Assembly (NCBI GenBank): GCA_963777605.1
Contig: CAVZRV010000023.1
Location: forward strand, 1 to 33,888
Direction of reading: 5' to 3'
DNA from: an uncultured Acidobacteriota bacterium
Lineage (GTDB): Bacteria; Acidobacteriota; UBA6911; RPQK01; JAPXNP01
DNA: 33,888 nucleotides
The position numbers and the translations under genes are program-made. Positions 21,352-26,503 of this stretch are shown in pieces (within the stretch, counting starts at the first letter, position 1; every line of letters starts with the position of its first letter). The notes under the pieces are model-generated. The model did not search any database. It was not told where the DNA came from and saw only the letters and a program-made list of their open reading frames with translations.

Positions 21352-21503
21352 CTGGCCGATCATCGCCGGAGGATGGTCTGCGAGGCATTCACGTCCTGAA
21401 ACGGCTCGAAGGTGTGTCGGACGGTCGTTTCGACTCCGAGGATCTGCGGTGCGCAGATAATTCGTAAAAGGCGACGGGCATTTTCCGGTTTCTGTGGAAG
21501 TTG

Positions 21504-21520
21504 TGTAAGGTTTCACGACA
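21504..21520. promoter_or_regulatory. Putative PrsR enhancer box (proximal)
   Basis: TGTAAGGTTTCACGACA; its reverse complement differs by 1 nt from the 26847 copy. Confidence 0.75.
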
Positions 21521-21583
21521 AATTCCGGGTTCTCAGAAAGAGCAGAGCGGCCAAAGTGCCTGTATTGGTGGGCTTTCGAAGTT

Positions 21584-21599
21584 TGGAACGCAACGTGCT
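21584..21599 (+). promoter_or_regulatory. Sigma54 -24/-12 promoter
   Basis: TGGAACGCAACGTGCT (GG-N10-GC) between the box and the PEP-CTERM start. Confidence 0.68.
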
Positions 21600-21675
21600 T
21601 CAGTTATCAGCAGTGATTGCAAATGGCGAGTCGGCATATCAATTTCTTGAAACTCTTAACACTAAGGAGGAGAGT

Positions 21676-22389
21676 ATGAAAAACTTACGAAAGAACGGGA
21701 CGAGGGTTGCAATTATCGCAGCAGCCCTTTTCCTGGCAGTGTTCCTGGGCTCAGGCCAAATCCTGGCCGATCCTATTCACGTTACGGTGTGGACCGGGGC
21801 CCCGGATGGCATCGTTTCCAGCATCAATGCCGATTTCCCGGTGCCAACCGGAGACCCTTTGGCGACCTTTGATTATGACGGCCCAATCTCGTGGAGGAAT
21901 GACGCCGGAAACGGAGTTGGGAATAACCAGTTTAATGAGTTCTTAGATCCTACTCATATTTATAACTTTGTCGCAGGCACCGTCGCTGATTATGCTACTT
22001 TTCTGACCACGAGCATGAGCGTTATTGGCAATGAATATGCGACTTATTTCCTGATCGAGGGGGAGTACAGCATTTTGGCAGGTCAGACGGTCACGGCAAG
22101 ACATGATGACGGCATGAGCGTCTATCTGGACAGTACGGAAGATGCTGGTGGTGTCTGGACCCCCGGGACCAATCTCCTTAATAGCGCAGCTGAAACATCT
22201 GAGATTGCTGATAGTCTTACTTGGGCAGCGGGGACCCATACCTACCAAATCCTTTATGTGGAAAGTAACGGATCGCCTTCGGTACTCGAAGTGGCTCTTC
22301 CGACGGCGGTTCCGGAACCGACGACTCTGCTTCTGCTTGGGTTCGGCCTGGTGGGAACGGGCCTCGGCCTGCGTCGCAAAAAGGCCTGA
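21676..22389 (+). CDS. PEP-CTERM surface protein 1 (PA14-like domain)
   Basis: AAGGAGG RBS, signal peptide, ARHDDGMSVYLD...AAGTHTYQILYVE, C-terminal VPEPTTLLLLGFGLVGTGLGLRRKKA. Confidence 0.93.
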   Translation: MKNLRKNGTRVAIIAAALFLAVFLGSGQILADPIHVTVWTGAPDGIVSSINADFPVPTGDPLATFDYDGPISWRNDAGNGVGNNQFNEFLDPTHIYNFVAGTVADYATFLTTSMSVIGNEYATYFLIEGEYSILAGQTVTARHDDGMSVYLDSTEDAGGVWTPGTNLLNSAAETSEIADSLTWAAGTHTYQILYVESNGSPSVLEVALPTAVPEPTTLLLLGFGLVGTGLGLRRKKA

Positions 22390-22554: not shown

Positions 22555-23214
22555 TTACAGCCTTCCAGAGTCGTCCCGAAATCTGAGGCCCGAACGGATG
22601 CAAAGTGCATTCCTTGGCTCGGGTGCATTCTTCGCCCTGTGCCGCAGCTTCATTGACACGTTCTGAACTCCGGGTTTTTTCCGCCAGTAGCCCAGATCCG
22701 CGCTGGGCGGTTGCGGTGTATCCGGCGTCGCGCTCGCTCCACTCGCGTACTGAATGCGACTCGACCTTCGCTGGTCGAGACCACAACGTGTCCCGCCTGA
22801 CCAGGAGAATGCGGGTCGTGGGGTTATGACGTGGCGAGGTCGGCCTGCTCTATGTGGATCGACAGCGCTTTTCGATAGCACGATGTCCCCTTCGATCTGC
22901 GAACTCACCGCGACGATATGCCCATGCTGGGAACGAATGCGTGCGGCATAGAGCTCCCAGTCCTCGTCAGCGCACTTATTGACGATGCCGTCGAACGCCA
23001 GCTCCCGACGAGTTTTGTCGAGCGCATATGGCAATTCCCGCATCCTCTCGCGAGCCTTCCGCATCCGCCTCGGGTTCGGGGGAATGAACGGGGTTCCGTA
23101 GCCATTGTGGAGCCCGGTTGCGTATTCCGCTGAATCCCCGTGGAGCCAGGTCCCGTAGCAGCGGATTGTGACCAGGTACGCGATCGACTGATCCTGCCAT
23201 GAATTATTATCCAT
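22555..23214 (-). pseudogene. REP-associated tyrosine (HUH, IS200-like) transposase remnant; recognisable only over about 22890-23214
   Basis: AYLVTIRCYGTWLHGD...P.IPP...M...PY.LD..RR......I...C....W.LYA..IRSQHGHIV (H-x-H); no convincing catalytic Tyr helix afterwards; the ORF runs on through the repeat. Confidence 0.65.
22694..22754 (+). repeat. REP-like repeat copy A
   Basis: 22730-22754 is a 24/25 inverted match to 23285-23309; 22709-22746 is a 35/38 direct match to 25555-25592. Confidence 0.8.
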
Positions 23215-23284: not shown

Positions 23285-23313
23285 TTCAGTACGCGAGAGG
23301 AGCGAGCGCTGCT
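23285..23313 (-). repeat. REP-like repeat copy B, left part (continues at 25165-25181 after the intron)
   Basis: TTCAGTACGCGAGAGGAGCGAGCGC is the reverse complement of copy A with 1 mismatch. Confidence 0.78.
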
Positions 23314-25164
23314 GCGCGCCCACAGGCGCGCATTGTCAGGAGGGTGAAAGTCCCTCCCAGGCCAGAGCTCTCCGGGCCTGTAACCGAATGTTACTGCGCC
23401 GTCGTGAGACGGGGTGGGGGGCACAGGAGGTGAGTCACCGGTCCGTACGCGAGGAACTCGATTCGGCGATGTGTCTGGGCGAGCCTGCAGTGGAATGGCG
23501 AAGCCTGATCCGAAAGGACGGTTCTTCCTCTATATGGGTAGCTGTCAAAGAGAGAAGGGCGGGACATGGCGTGGTTGGAGACGGAACGGCGACAGAAGGC
23601 AATGCGACGCGAGCGTGGGGAGACCTGCCGACCCGGGAGAGGGTCGGACAGGAGTCCGAGTCCTCATAGTAGTGATGAAGGTCCTGTAATGGGACTGGAG
23701 CGAAGGGGGACAGGAAGGTGGAGACGAGACGACATGGGCAGCGAAGAGCAACCGACGGCAGTGTCTGAGACTAAACAAGTCGGAGAAGCCGGGTCCCGGT
23801 GGGACTGGGCGGAACGCAGCGTATGGACGGATCGGATGTTGAAGGCCCTGGAAACGGGAGTGAAAGGAGGAGCCTGGTTCAGCCTGATGGACAAGGTCTA
23901 CGGTCGACGCAACTTGGGGGCGGCCTTTGCGAAAGTGAAGGCCAACCGGGGAGCGGCGGGAGTGGACCATGTCACGGTCGAGCAGTTCGACAAGCGCCTG
24001 GACGAGGAACTGGAACGGCTGCACGACAGCCTCAAGAACGGGACCTACCGCCCGCAGGGAATCCGTCGAAGCTATATCGACAAACCGGGCAGCCGCGAGA
24101 AGCGGCCGCTGGGGATTCCGACGGTGCGGGATCGGGTAGTGCAGACGGCACTACGCAATGTATTGGAACCGATCTTTGAGGAAACGTTCGCCGTGCGAAG
24201 TTTTGGTTTTCGTCCGGGGCGCGGATGCAAGGATGCCTTACGGCAGGTGCAGCAGACGATCCAGAGCGGCCACTATTGGGTGGTCGATGCGGACATCCGC
24301 AGCTACTTTGACCGAATCTCCCACACCCGGCTTCGGGAGGAGATCCAGGGACAAGTGGCGGATGGACGCGTGCTGGAGTTGCTCGAGGCTTTCCTGAAAC
24401 AGGAGATCTTCGAGGCGCTGCGGCACTGGACGCCGGAGGAAGGCTGTCCGCAAGGGGCGGTCATCAGTCCACTACTGGCCAACGTCTATCTCAATCCACT
24501 GGACCACCGGATGGAGCAAGCCGGTTTCGTGATGATCCGGTATGCCGATGATCTGGTGATCCTATGCCGAAGCGAGCAGGAAGCCCGCCGGGCGTGGCGA
24601 CTGCTGGCGGAGTGGATGGAGGCGGTGGGGCTGGAATTGCATCCGGAGAAGACCCGAATCGTGGATCTTCACGAGGACGGGTTTGACTTCCTGGGGTACC
24701 ACTTTCAAGCAGGCAGGTCCGGACTGCCGCGGCTGGTCAAGTATCCTCGGAAGAAGAGCATGCAGAAGCTTCGCGCCAATCTGAAGCCGCTGACCAAGCG
24801 GGCGAATGGGCGGAGTCTGGACGCGATCATCCGACTTGTGAATCTGCGACTGCGGGGCTGGTTTGGCTATTACAAACACAGTAACCGCCGTACGTTTGAG
24901 CAAGTCGATATCTGGGTGCGCGGACGGCTCCGAGCCATTCTTCGCAAACGCCACGGTCTCCGCGGACGAGCGCGGGGTGCCGACTACCAACGCTGGCCCA
25001 ACGCCTATTTCCGCGAGCGCAGGCTGTTCTCCCTGACTGCAGCCTACGACTCGGCCACTCAATCCTCTTCGAGGTGAACCACCAACTGGAGAGCCCGGTC
25101 CGGGAGAACCGGACGCCGGGTTCGGAGGGAGGGGTAGCGGACCAACCGCTATCCCTACCCCTAG
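23314..25164 (+). mobile_element. Group II intron, apparently full length (IIB-like, AGC triad)
   Basis: 5' GCGCG followed by the DI stem (CCCAC/GTGGG, CGCATTG/CAATGCG), GGGTGAAAGTCCC, DII, DIII (ATAGT...GGAGCGAAG), ORF in DIV, DV GAGCCCGGTCCGGGAGAACCGGACGCCGGGTTC at 25091-25123, DVI with bulged A25157. Confidence 0.9.
23734..25077 (+). CDS. ltrA: Group II intron reverse transcriptase/maturase, no endonuclease domain
   Basis: NRGAAGVD, KRPLGIPTVRDRVVQ, SFGFRPGRG, WVVDADIRSYFD, GCPQGAVISPLLANVYL, RYADD, FDFLGY, maturase LRGWFGYY; ends without HNH. ATG 23734 is the first ATG after DIII. Confidence 0.95.
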   Translation: MGSEEQPTAVSETKQVGEAGSRWDWAERSVWTDRMLKALETGVKGGAWFSLMDKVYGRRNLGAAFAKVKANRGAAGVDHVTVEQFDKRLDEELERLHDSLKNGTYRPQGIRRSYIDKPGSREKRPLGIPTVRDRVVQTALRNVLEPIFEETFAVRSFGFRPGRGCKDALRQVQQTIQSGHYWVVDADIRSYFDRISHTRLREEIQGQVADGRVLELLEAFLKQEIFEALRHWTPEEGCPQGAVISPLLANVYLNPLDHRMEQAGFVMIRYADDLVILCRSEQEARRAWRLLAEWMEAVGLELHPEKTRIVDLHEDGFDFLGYHFQAGRSGLPRLVKYPRKKSMQKLRANLKPLTKRANGRSLDAIIRLVNLRLRGWFGYYKHSNRRTFEQVDIWVRGRLRAILRKRHGLRGRARGADYQRWPNAYFRERRLFSLTAAYDSATQSSSR

Positions 25165-25275
25165 CCAGACGTTGAGTAACCACCAGAAGCGATGCCGGAG
25201 GCCGAGCACGTTAGGGATGGGAGGCCTCTGACTGGCGCGTAGAAGTTACCGGACGTCCAGCCGCTACCCGAGATC

Positions 25276-25837: not shown

Positions 25838-26503
25838 CTAGGCCGCCTTCCGGCGGATCAATCCTAAGCCGAGGAGGCCAGTACCAAGCAGCAGCAGGGT
25901 CAGCGGTTCCGGAACGAGTGTCCCTGGCTCGCCGTAAACTTTGGAACTCTGCAGATTGGGATCGGTGTTGGCGATGCCCTGAATGTGGGCAAGGGCGTAG
26001 TAGAGAGTCTGACCGCCCTGCGGGGCCGACTGGAAAAGAAAGTCCTCTGGAGCGAGACCTCCCGAGTAGGTTAGGAGAAAGACGGACTGTTCCCCGTCGG
26101 TAAACCGGTCGGCAGCCGCTGTCGGGTAGTCGAAATTGATGTCGAACTTACCGGAAGCGCCAGGAGTATACCCGTCCGCACTTTTAGTAACTGAATTAAC
26201 CTCCACGCCACTATCCCAACTGATCAGCAGGGTGGCCAGGGTTTTCTGCGGATTGAAGTTGAACCACCAGTTCGTGACAAACTCAGTGCTCGCCAGATTC
26301 AAAGCGCTGAGAGTGAGCCAAACCTGGTCCGCATTCCCCCCTTGTTCGAACTTCGCTGACAACCAGGGAGGGGTTCCGCTGGGCGTTCCGCCGGTTGCAA
26401 CACCGCCGAAAGTAAATACTACAGGGTCGGCGAGAACCGGTGCTGAACAGAGGAACAAAGTCAGGAGGGCGATCGTTCCGACAAGATACGTTTTGAATTT
26501 CAT
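25838..26503 (-). CDS. PEP-CTERM surface protein 2
   Basis: GGAG RBS, signal peptide ending VLA-DP, C-terminal VPEPLTLLLLGTGLLGLGLIRRKAA. Confidence 0.93.
   Translation of the reverse strand: MKFKTYLVGTIALLTLFLCSAPVLADPVVFTFGGVATGGTPSGTPPWLSAKFEQGGNADQVWLTLSALNLASTEFVTNWWFNFNPQKTLATLLISWDSGVEVNSVTKSADGYTPGASGKFDINFDYPTAAADRFTDGEQSVFLLTYSGGLAPEDFLFQSAPQGGQTLYYALAHIQGIANTDPNLQSSKVYGEPGTLVPEPLTLLLLGTGLLGLGLIRRKAA

What the first reader, a model, noticed from the sequence alone, without database searches (positions are those of the whole stretch)
23314..25164. Group II intron with GC...AG boundaries and a compensatory C-G gamma-gamma' pair
Seen: the 5' end, fixed by the DI closing stem, is GCGCG rather than GUGYG. 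Counting 8 nt from the bulged A25157 (ACCCCTAG), the intron ends in AG rather than AY. The J2/3 linker between DII (..GGAGTC) and DIII (GTCCTC..GGGGAC) is CGA at 23657-23659 rather than RGA. Established: the first J2/3 base (gamma) pairs with the last intron base. Inference: C23657-G25164 is a covariation, which argues against sequencing error and for a functional intron whose termini resemble spliceosomal GC-AG introns. DV stays fully paired and the RT is intact.
Basis: partly seen in the sequence, partly recalled or inferred. Interest (0 to 1): 0.78.

Follow-up and report, generated by a model that had tools for sequence, protein, structure and literature searches.

The report
Mobile group II intron with GC...AG ends
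This is a real, recently mobile bacterial group II intron whose ends read GC...AG instead of the usual GU...AY, and its unusual last base is matched by a compensating change at the internal base that normally pairs with it.

Summary
Window 23314-25164 is a complete group II intron: D5-D6 matches RF00029, and the reverse transcriptase/maturase is intact and has no endonuclease domain. It starts GCGCG, has CGA as J2/3 (23657-23659) and ends CUAG.

The splice sites are fixed by four independent lines:
- Four near-identical copies in this genome share only T|G...G|C at their junctions.
- Unoccupied copies of the repeated target element read ...CT|CC....
- Across 55 distinct relatives, EBS1 (23489-23493) covaries with exon positions -1 to -5.
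- Across the same relatives, EBS3 (G23574) covaries with exon position +1.

In relatives the first J2/3 base is A in 51 of 51 and the last base is U in 44 of 44. One relative has G with a final C. The window lineage and a 73%-identical relative from another family have C with a final G. On a reverse-transcriptase tree this GC/CGA/AG clade is one derived branch inside a GU/AGA/AU family with IIC-type exon recognition.

The clade also changed an otherwise invariant D1 A (23420) and flipped an invariant D5 base pair (25100/25112). No RNA data were available, so splicing itself is inferred from mobility. I rate it a new variant of a known kind, of moderate interest. The likeness to spliceosomal GC-AG introns is nominal only.

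The parts
23285..23313 (+). 5' exon: one arm of a repeated inverted-repeat (REP/MITE-like) element. The last 5 nt, 23309-23313 (CTGCT), are IBS1.
   Evidence: The motif occurs 19 times in the own genome at up to 1 mismatch, against 0 for the reversed control, mostly as inverted pairs about 120 nt apart. Empty arms read ...GCGAGCGC NNCT|[C/G]C[R]GA.
23314..25164 (+). Complete group II intron, 1851 nt.
   Evidence: Four copies with shared ends. Homology of both ends to relatives. EBS1-IBS1 and EBS3-IBS3 covariation.
23314..23318 (+). 5' terminal GCGCG. Position 2 (23315) is C where 51 of 51 non-clade relatives have T.
23319..23323 (+). 5' strand of the DI closing helix I(i) (CCCAC). It pairs with 23615-23619 (GTGGG).
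   Evidence: Compensatory changes: L100 has TCCAT/ATGGA. The pair 23322/23616 is A-T here and G-C in 49 of 51 relatives.
23420..23422 (+). Tentative lambda (G23420) and epsilon' (G23421, C23422). Relatives read A-G-C here and have one more A downstream.
   Evidence: A is present in 51 of 51 non-clade relatives and G in the clade. The epsilon' assignment is weak: of two relatives with A at intron position 3, one has the matching T and the other does not. Naming these bases lambda and epsilon' is my inference.
23489..23493 (+). EBS1 (AGTGG), which pairs antiparallel with exon positions -1 to -5.
   Evidence: Watson-Crick fractions are 0.98, 0.85, 0.87, 0.87 and 0.80 over 55 sequences, with all four pair types at every position. 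The next-best column scores at most 0.64. L100 has GAGTG against CACTC, 5 of 5.
23574..23574 (+). EBS3 (G), which pairs with the first 3' exon base, C25165.
   Evidence: Watson-Crick in 0.96 of 48 sequences with 3 pair types. Relatives with +1 T have A here, and those with +1 A have T.
23615..23619 (+). 3' strand of the DI closing helix I(i).
23622..23656 (+). Domain II hairpin (GAC CTG CCGACCC ... GGGTCGG A CAG GA GTC).
   Evidence: Read. The flanking GAGACCTG...CAGGAGTC is conserved in the alignment. The pairing itself was drawn by hand.
23657..23659 (+). J2/3 = CGA. C23657 is gamma.
   Evidence: Alignment of relatives: most have AGA, a few ACA, L024 has GGA, and the window copies, L019 and L100 have CGA.
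23660..23711 (+). Domain III (GTCCTC ... GGGGAC).
   Evidence: Read. Weak RF01998 match over 23625-23708 (17.4 bits, below its gathering score of 35). Conserved.
23734..25077 (+). Reverse transcriptase/maturase ORF in domain IV: 447 aa, YADD motif present, no endonuclease domain.
25091..25123 (+). Domain V. The pair C25100-G25112, the first pair above the bulge, is G-C in 44 of 44 non-clade relatives.
25126..25161 (+). Domain VI with the bulged branch-point A25157.
   Evidence: RF00029 alignment. The CCTAC motif is conserved in relatives.
25162..25164 (+). 3' tail TAG. G25164 is gamma', the last intron base.
25165..25165 (+). IBS3, the first base of the 3' exon. The repeated element continues downstream.

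Best explanation
Window 23314-25164 is an active, or very recently active, mobile group II intron. Its closest solved relatives are IIC introns, and it uses IIC-type exon recognition.

How it finds its target: a 5-nt EBS1 (23489-23493) and a 1-nt EBS3 (G23574) recognise the site, and no EBS2 was detected. It reverse-splices into DNA at ...CCACT|C-like sites, here the inner edge of a repeated inverted-repeat element.

What is unusual: its lineage replaced the usual termini GU...AU by GC...AG. The last base, G25164, is held for exon ligation and reverse splicing by a Watson-Crick pair with C23657, the first J2/3 base (gamma-gamma'). This takes the place of the A-U pair in its relatives. The change arose once inside a GU/AGA/AU family and has persisted through about 27% reverse-transcriptase divergence.

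What is shown: the ends, the exon-binding pairings, the covariation, the copy number and the clade.

What is inferred: that the RNA splices at these sites, and that C23657-G25164 actually pair.
For: 1. It is a group II intron. RF00029 scores 42.9 bits against a gathering score of 40. TIGR04416 scores 393 bits against a cut-off of 300, with RVT_1 and GIIM.

2. Mobility with these ends. The own genome holds four copies at 99-100% identity. Their flanks share only T at -1 and C at +1. Every site pairs with EBS1 AGTGG at 4 or 5 of 5 positions when G-U pairs are counted, and with EBS3 G.

3. Splice sites. EBS1 covaries with exon -1 to -5 at 0.98, 0.85, 0.87, 0.87 and 0.80 Watson-Crick over 55 sequences. 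EBS3 covaries with +1 at 0.96 over 48 sequences. Empty arms of the target element read NNCT|[C/G]C[R]GA, which fits the filled site TGCT|intron|CCAGA.

4. Covariation of gamma and gamma'. It is A with T in all 44 non-clade relatives that have both positions readable, G with C in L024, and C with G in the window lineage and L100.

5. Persistence. L100 lies in a genome of another family, has an open reverse-transcriptase frame 73% identical to the window's, and carries GCGCG, CGA and TAG. L019 (77% identical) carries CGA, but both its ends are cut by the contig. On the reverse-transcriptase tree, window+L019+L100 form one clade (SH-like support 99). It is sister to L041, a GT/AGA/TAT intron (support 95), and nested among GT/AGA/TAT introns.

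6. Other samples. Metagenome contigs from two other runs carry copies about 93-94% identical, covering 23313-25164 and 23285-25169. One of them continues into the same repeated element.

7. Published support for the pairing (passages read). Gamma-gamma' is a Watson-Crick pair between a J2/3 base and the last intron base (PMC4424553). It is A327-U638 in the E. rectale IIC cryoEM structures (PMC10733145).
Against: - There is no RNA evidence. No RNA run was listed for this sequence, so neither ligated exons nor a lariat were seen.
- Two of the four copies have broken reverse-transcriptase frames.
- The C-G state traces to one evolutionary event and the G-C state to another, so the covariation rests on two independent compensated changes, not on many.
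- Both termini are fully read in only two independent lineages, the window and L100.
- PMC10733145 (passages) reports that U2 makes a base triple with a D6 G-C pair and speaks of stringent identity requirements at the 5' splice site. That D6 pair is unchanged here, so what accommodates C2 is not explained.
- The 50 nt upstream of the window's site do not fold better than shuffles as single-stranded DNA (z +1.71), unlike the usual IIC target.
Confidence: 0.85

Rival explanations
1. The GC...AG copies are a decaying, splicing-dead lineage. The end changes would be neutral damage in elements that no longer move, and the C/G match would be a coincidence.
For: Two of the four copies have frameshifts or stops in the reverse transcriptase. 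No RNA evidence was available.
Against: The same three changes are shared by copies at four different sites, and by L100 in another family with an open reverse-transcriptase frame. So they predate many insertions. Each insertion site fits this ribozyme's own EBS1 and EBS3. Positions that are invariant in 51 and 44 relatives changed to exactly complementary bases.
Confidence: 0.07
2. The true 3' splice site is one base further on. The intron would end ...TAGC at 25165, so the last base would be an ordinary pyrimidine, paired with G23658 rather than with C23657.
For: C25165 is shared by all four copies and by L100, so flank comparison alone cannot place it in the exon.
Against: In relatives the base after ...CCCCTAT varies (C 38, A 5, T 4, G 1) and covaries with the EBS3 column, which is G23574 here. 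That makes C25165 the first exon base. Empty arms of the target element keep the two bases ...T|C.... The family's G at the second J2/3 position is unchanged in the clade.
Confidence: 0.04
3. Assembly or sequencing artefact at positions 23315, 23657 and 25164.
For: None found.
Against: Four copies on three contigs read the same, as does an independent genome (L100). L019 shares CGA.
Confidence: 0.01

Closest known systems
Bacterial group IIC (class C) introns, e.g. the Eubacterium rectale, Oceanobacillus iheyensis, Bacillus halodurans and GsI-IIC introns
   Same: - The reverse transcriptase has no endonuclease domain.
- The nearest solved reverse transcriptases are IIC: 6ar1 at 224.5 bits and 7uim at 208.1 bits, against IIB 6me0 at 159.3 and IIA 5g2x at 152.3.
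- Exons are recognised by a short EBS1 plus EBS3, with no EBS2 signal.
- Relatives sit just 3' of foldable sequence: the upstream 40 nt fold at -8 kcal/mol or below in 48 of 51 (no shuffle control).
- The CCTAC branch motif is present.
   Different: - The termini are GC...AG and gamma-gamma' is C-G, instead of GU...AU and A-U.
- The whole family ends CCUACCCCUAU, one base longer than the published class C consensus CCUACYCGAU (PMC4028801, passages).
- The window's target is the inner edge of a repeated inverted-repeat element, not a terminator hairpin.
- Placement in class C by phylogeny was not tested.
Its own GU/AGA/AU relatives (L014-L098; nearest is L041)
   Same: The domain layout is the same. 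The reverse transcriptase is 50-61% identical. EBS1, EBS3 and the D5/D6 motifs occupy the same positions.
   Different: The clade differs at positions that are 90-100% conserved in the others:
- intron position 2, T to C;
- 23420, A to G, with an adjacent 1-nt deletion;
- 23392, A to T, and 23434, A to G;
- gamma, A to C;
- the D5 pair 25100/25112, G-C to C-G;
- the last base, T to G.
Mitochondrial cox1 group II introns of Travisia annelids
   Same: They are reported to begin 5' GCGCG (PMC8924214, passages read).
   Different: They end in AY, are degenerate organellar introns in which only domains V and VI could be folded, and no gamma change is reported.
Spliceosomal GC-AG introns
   Same: Only the terminal dinucleotides GC and AG.
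   Different: This element is a self-contained ribozyme and retroelement. By inference its last G is read by a Watson-Crick pair with J2/3. PMC4424553 (passages) says no such interaction has been reported for spliceosomal introns.

Membership tests
Group II intron (ribozyme plus intron-encoded reverse transcriptase) | Domain V/VI covariance-model match (RF00029) | tested here: met
   42.9 bits against a gathering score of 40 at 25089-25164 in the sub-region scan. It was not listed in the whole-window gathering scan.
Group II intron (ribozyme plus intron-encoded reverse transcriptase) | Reverse transcriptase/maturase of the group II type in domain IV | tested here: met
   TIGR04416 at 393 bits (cut-off 300). 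RVT_1 E 1.7e-42 and GIIM E 3e-14.
Group II intron (ribozyme plus intron-encoded reverse transcriptase) | Exon-binding pairings EBS1-IBS1 and EBS3-IBS3 at the splice sites | tested here: met
   Covariation over 55 and 48 sequences.
Group II intron (ribozyme plus intron-encoded reverse transcriptase) | Bulged branch-point A in domain VI, 6 or 7 nt before the intron end | tested here: met
   A25157 is followed by 7 nt. The 6-or-7 rule is cited from PMC4748821 (passages).
Group II intron (ribozyme plus intron-encoded reverse transcriptase) | Consensus termini 5' GUGYG ... AY 3'. The literature describes this as a consensus of the vast majority, not a definition. | tested here: not met
   The termini are GCGCG ... 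AG. This deviation is the finding itself. It comes with a complementary change at gamma, so membership stands on the other rows.
Group IIC / class C | No endonuclease domain in the intron-encoded protein | tested here: met
   Only RVT_1 (residues 171-380) and GIIM (399-468) were found in the 503-aa frame, which ends 35 aa after GIIM.
Group IIC / class C | Short IBS1 plus IBS3, and no IBS2-EBS2 | tested here: met
   Strong columns appear only for exon -1 to -5 and +1. The best column for -6 to -14 scores at most 0.64, with 2 pair types.
Group IIC / class C | Insertion just downstream of a terminator or other stem-loop | tested here: inconclusive
   In relatives, the upstream 40 nt fold at -8 kcal/mol or below in 48 of 51 (no shuffle control), and hairpins are visible. 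For the window's site, z is +1.71 against shuffles.
Group IIC / class C | Class-specific boundary consensus GUNYGCCNRGCAUGG ... CCUACYCGAU (PMC4028801) | tested here: inconclusive
   The family reads GUGCGCCUG.AAGCG ... CCUACCCCUAU. It is similar, but one base longer at the 3' end and different after position 9.
Group IIC / class C | Reverse transcriptase falls in IEP class C on a reference tree | not tested
   No reference set of classified IEPs was available. The only indication is the ranking of solved structures.
Spliceosomal GC-AG introns | Nuclear pre-mRNA intron removed by snRNPs | tested here: not met
   It has bacterial genomic context and its own ribozyme domains and reverse transcriptase. 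Only the dinucleotides match.

The most novel reading that the evidence does not exclude
The clade did not simply swap one pair. It re-wired the network that holds both splice sites at the catalytic centre. On one branch the following changed together:
- intron position 2, U to C;
- the invariant D1 A next to the putative epsilon' bases, A to G, with a 1-nt deletion (possibly lambda);
- the invariant first pair of the distal D5 stem, G-C to C-G (possibly lambda');
- gamma-gamma', A-U to C-G.

If these are functionally coupled, this natural variant shows that 5' GU and 3' AY identity in group II introns is set by a co-evolving set of contacts, not by chemistry. It would also give a ribozyme counterpart to the GU-AG to GC-AG shift of spliceosomal introns.
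Probability: 0.3. Interest if true: 0.65.

Novelty: new variant of a known kind. Interest (0 to 1): 0.5.

Why it matters
Gamma-gamma' is one of the few contacts that define the 3' splice site of group II introns. Natural examples are nearly all A-U or G-C with a pyrimidine at the intron end. A mobile lineage with a terminal purine, read by a C in J2/3, gives a natural compensatory pair in the reverse orientation.

It also shows that the 5' GU, which recent cryoEM work describes as stringently required, can be GC in an IIC-like intron that still spreads.

The co-occurring changes in D1 and D5 point to specific mutant-cycle experiments on how the two splice sites are coupled to the catalytic core. 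In practical terms, boundary-finding pipelines built on GUGYG/AY profiles would mis-call this clade.

Tried and rejected
**RNA evidence.** The look-up of sequencing runs listed no RNA holder. Read laying on four DNA contig sets gave no joint corresponding to an empty site or a spliced form. Its table of other letters showed no change at 23315, 23657 or 25164, but 110 rows were not shown, so I draw nothing from that.

**More members of the clade.**
- The order-wide protein search found 3 of 76 genomes at E <= 1e-165: the own genome, G032 (which holds L100) and G056 at 58% identity.
- The J2/3 pattern matched only the own genome's four copies in a sample of 401 genomes of the phylum.
- Its one hit in viral contigs, L128, has no intron features and is a chance match.
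- Plasmids gave 6 records, all below 60% identity.

**Position 2 and position 17.** I considered that C2 is compensated by G at intron position 17, because a 5' hairpin GCGCGC...GCGCGC can be drawn. I rejected this. Positions 15-22 belong to helix I(ii), which pairs with 23600-23608, and relatives such as L032 have U2 with G17.

**GGGTAGC as EBS1.** I considered GGGTAGC (23536-23542) as EBS1 and rejected it, because it is conserved in L100 and L019 although L100's target differs.

**RAYT guess.** I guessed that ORF 22555-23214 (-) is a REP-associated transposase. Pfam and NCBIfam gave no hit, so the guess is dropped.

**Regex calls dropped.** Four of the 59 distinct sequences were mis-parsed or 5'-truncated and were removed before the 55-sequence counts: L042, L045, L051 and L060.

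**Literature.** Searches found no report of a group II intron ending in AG with C at gamma. They did find a 5' GCGCG in annelid mitochondrial introns (PMC8924214). Subscription journals are not covered, including the original gamma-gamma' and lambda-lambda' papers, which I only recall. Supplements were closed, so the class consensus figure of PMC4028801 was not seen.

Full report
**What is there**

- GCGCG is at 23314-23318.
- CGA is at 23657-23659, between ...GGAGTC and GTCCTC.
- The bulged A is at 25157, followed by CCCCTAG, so the stretch ends at G25164.

The element is a group II intron.
- RF00029 (domains V-VI) matches 25089-25164 at 42.9 bits, against a gathering score of 40, when the sub-region is scanned. 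The whole-window gathering scan listed nothing.
- The ORF from ATG 23734 to the stop at 25077 scores 393 bits on TIGR04416 (cut-off 300). It carries RVT_1 and GIIM and has no further domain.

**Copies and target**

The own genome holds four copies at 99-100% identity: the window's, two on contig 11 and one on contig 30.
- Their flanks differ except for a T at -1 and a C at +1.
- Two copies keep an open reverse-transcriptase frame. The other two have a frameshift, one of them with two stops as well.

Two of the copies, the window's and one on contig 11, sit at the inner edge of one arm of a repeated element with inverted-repeat arms.
- The arm motif occurs 19 times in the genome at up to 1 mismatch, against 0 for the reversed control. 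The hits are mostly inverted pairs about 120 nt apart.
- Unoccupied arms read ...GCGAGCGC NNCT|[C/G]C[R]GA.... The filled window site reads ...GCGAGCGC TGCT|intron|CCAGA....

**Relatives**

The reverse transcriptase belongs to a very large family.
- 8000 proteins scored in the homology search. 25 clusters are 68-88% identical to the window's protein, and the rest of the 120 listed are at most 62% identical.
- DNA of relatives came from three sources: genome contigs (5 loci), metagenome contigs (596 of 599 candidate stretches encode a relative, the best 80 kept) and related genomes (10 of 41 genomes at E <= 1e-60).
- nhmmer with the window's 5' end, J2/3 region and 3' end found 85, 89 and 86 of the 122 loci then held.

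Nearly all relatives start GTGCG, read ...CAGGAGTC AGA GC... at J2/3, and end ...CCTACCCCTAT.

I extracted 59 distinct sequences by regular expression. Their combinations of 5' end, J2/3 and 3' end were:
- GTGCG/AGA/TAT in 35;
- GTGCG/AGA with the 3' end missing in 6;
- GTGCG/ACA/TAT in 4;
- GCGCG/CGA/TAG in 4 (three own copies with distinct sequence, plus L100);
- a few others.

Four of the 59 were mis-parsed or truncated (L042, L045, L051, L060). I dropped them, which leaves 55.

**Splice sites**

I aligned the 55 sequences from the 5' end to J2/3 with MAFFT. Every alignment column was then scored for Watson-Crick complementarity to each exon position.
- Five consecutive columns, window 23489-23493 (AGTGG), pair antiparallel with exon -1 to -5. 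The fractions are 0.98, 0.85, 0.87, 0.87 and 0.80, and all four pair types occur at each position.
- No column stands out for -6 to -14. The best reaches 0.64 with two pair types.
- One column, G23574, pairs with exon +1 in 0.96 of 48 sequences. Relatives with T or A at +1 have A or T there.
- Exceptions: L039 fails at -1, and L033 and L054 fail at +1.

For the window's four copies, exon positions -5 to -1 read CTGCT, CTACT, CCATT and CCAAT.
- They pair with EBS1 at 5, 5, 5 and 4 of 5 positions when G-U pairs are counted.
- L100's CACTC pairs 5 of 5 with its GAGTG.

This fixes the junctions at T23313|G23314 and G25164|C25165. It is independent of the flank comparison and of the homology of the ends. 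Recognition by a short EBS1 plus EBS3, without EBS2, is the IIC mode described in PMC4424553 (passages).

**The covariation**
- In the 51 non-clade sequences the first J2/3 base is A in 51 of 51.
- In the 44 of them with a 3' end the last base is T in 44 of 44.
- L024, whose 5' part is cut off, has GGA and ends ...CCTACCCTAC or ...TACC. Either way its last base is C.
- The window copies and L100 have CGA and end in G. L019 has CGA, but its ends are cut.

So gamma and gamma' are A-U, G-C or C-G, and never mismatched where both can be read.

On a quick FastTree reverse-transcriptase tree of 59 rows, rooted on five distant introns:
- window, L019 and L100 form one clade (SH-like support 99);
- that clade is sister to L041, which is GT/AGA/TAT (support 95);
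- it is nested among GT/AGA/TAT rows, and L024 lies elsewhere.

The evidence is therefore two independent compensated events, not many. The GC/CGA/AG state is derived.

**Other changes on the same branch**

I listed the columns that are at least 90% conserved in the non-clade sequences and that differ in the same way in the window and L100. They are:
- position 2: T in 51 of 51 others, C in the clade;
- the compensated I(i) pair 23322/23616: G-C to A-T;
- 23392: A to T;
- 23420: A in 51 of 51 others, G in the clade, with one A deleted just downstream;
- 23434: A to G;
- gamma (23657): A to C;
- the D5 pair 25100/25112: G-C in 44 of 44 others, C-G in the clade;
- the last base (25164): T to G.

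L019 shares the D1, J2/3 and D5 states.

In relatives the D1 motif reads G-A-G-C-A-A-C. The GC could be epsilon', pairing with G3 and C4, and the A before it could be lambda.
- Support from covariation is thin. Of two relatives with A at position 3, one has the matching T and the other does not.
[quoted passage not shown] The flipped pair lies in that stem.
- Which D5 pair is lambda' comes from my recollection and was not checked.

PMC10733145 (passages) reports that U2 forms a base triple with a D6 G-C pair two pairs above the branch A. That part of D6 (CCCTA) is unchanged in the clade. What accommodates C2 therefore remains open.

**Function**

No RNA run was listed, so splicing is inferred. 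The inference rests on three points.
- Retromobility needs an excised intron RNA that reverse-splices at sites matching its EBS1 and EBS3, and all four insertion sites do match.
- The state is shared with a relative whose reverse transcriptase is 73% identical and still has an open frame.
- Contigs from two other metagenome runs carry copies about 93-94% identical, covering 23313-25164 and 23285-25169. One of them runs on into the same repeated element.

**Class**
- The nearest solved reverse transcriptases are IIC: 6ar1 at 224.5 bits, 7uim at 208.1, and 5hhj and 5hhl at about 177. IIB 6me0 scores 159.3 and IIA 5g2x scores 152.3.
- The family's ends resemble the published class C consensus but do not equal it (PMC4028801, passages).
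- Relatives lie just 3' of foldable sequence: the upstream 40 nt fold at -8 kcal/mol or below in 48 of 51 (without a shuffle control).
- The window's upstream 50 nt do not fold better than shuffles (z +1.71).

I call the intron IIC-like. Class membership by phylogeny is untested.

**Novelty**
- A 5' GCGCG has been reported for degenerate annelid mitochondrial introns that end in AY (PMC8924214, passages).
- Six full-text searches found no report of a group II intron ending in AG with C at gamma. The library lacks most subscription journals, and supplements were closed.

This is a new variant of a known kind. The likeness to spliceosomal GC-AG introns is confined to the dinucleotides.

Noticed in passing
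window 22730-22752 (-), 23287-23309 (+); own genome C7, C11, C15, C21, C27, C28, C31, C35: A repeated element of about 150 nt with arms of about 30 nt in inverted orientation. The arm motif occurs 19 times against 0 for the control, mostly as convergent pairs about 120 nt apart. Two intron copies are inserted at the inner edge of an arm, one at either kind of end. In the window the two arms are divergent and 535 nt apart.
   Followed up: partly
window 22555-23214 (-): A 219-aa ORF next to the intron, overlapped by a repeat arm. From its N-terminal motif I guessed a REP-associated transposase, but Pfam and NCBIfam gave no hit.
   Followed up: partly
window 21412-22389 (+) and 25838-26503 (-): Two ORFs ending in PEP-CTERM sorting motifs flank the region.
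   Followed up: no
L039, L079 (5' flank) and L033, L039 (3' flank): Some relatives sit head to tail with another intron. The 5' exon ends ...CCTACCCCTAT, which is the 3' end of an intron, or the 3' exon starts GTGCGCC. This suggests that the domain VI hairpin of one intron can serve as the target of the next. L039 is also the only sequence whose -1 base fails to pair with EBS1.
   Followed up: no
window 25089-25164: The RF00029 match reaches its gathering score when 2.2 kb are scanned, but it was not reported by the gathering-threshold scan of the whole 33.9-kb window. A blank from the fast scan is therefore not evidence of absence.
   Followed up: yes
own genome C11:298409-300292 and C30:148831-150680 (L002, L004): Two of the four intron copies have a broken reverse-transcriptase frame: a frameshift near residue 160, and in the contig 30 copy also one TAG and one TAA. 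Both keep the ribozyme ends.
   Followed up: partly
L030, L036, L043, L044, L064 and L069 (J2/3): A minority of relatives have ACA instead of AGA at J2/3, that is, a change at the second J2/3 base, which is otherwise conserved. They keep A at gamma, and the five with a readable 3' end keep a final U; L069's 3' end was not cross-checked against its J2/3 call.
   Followed up: no
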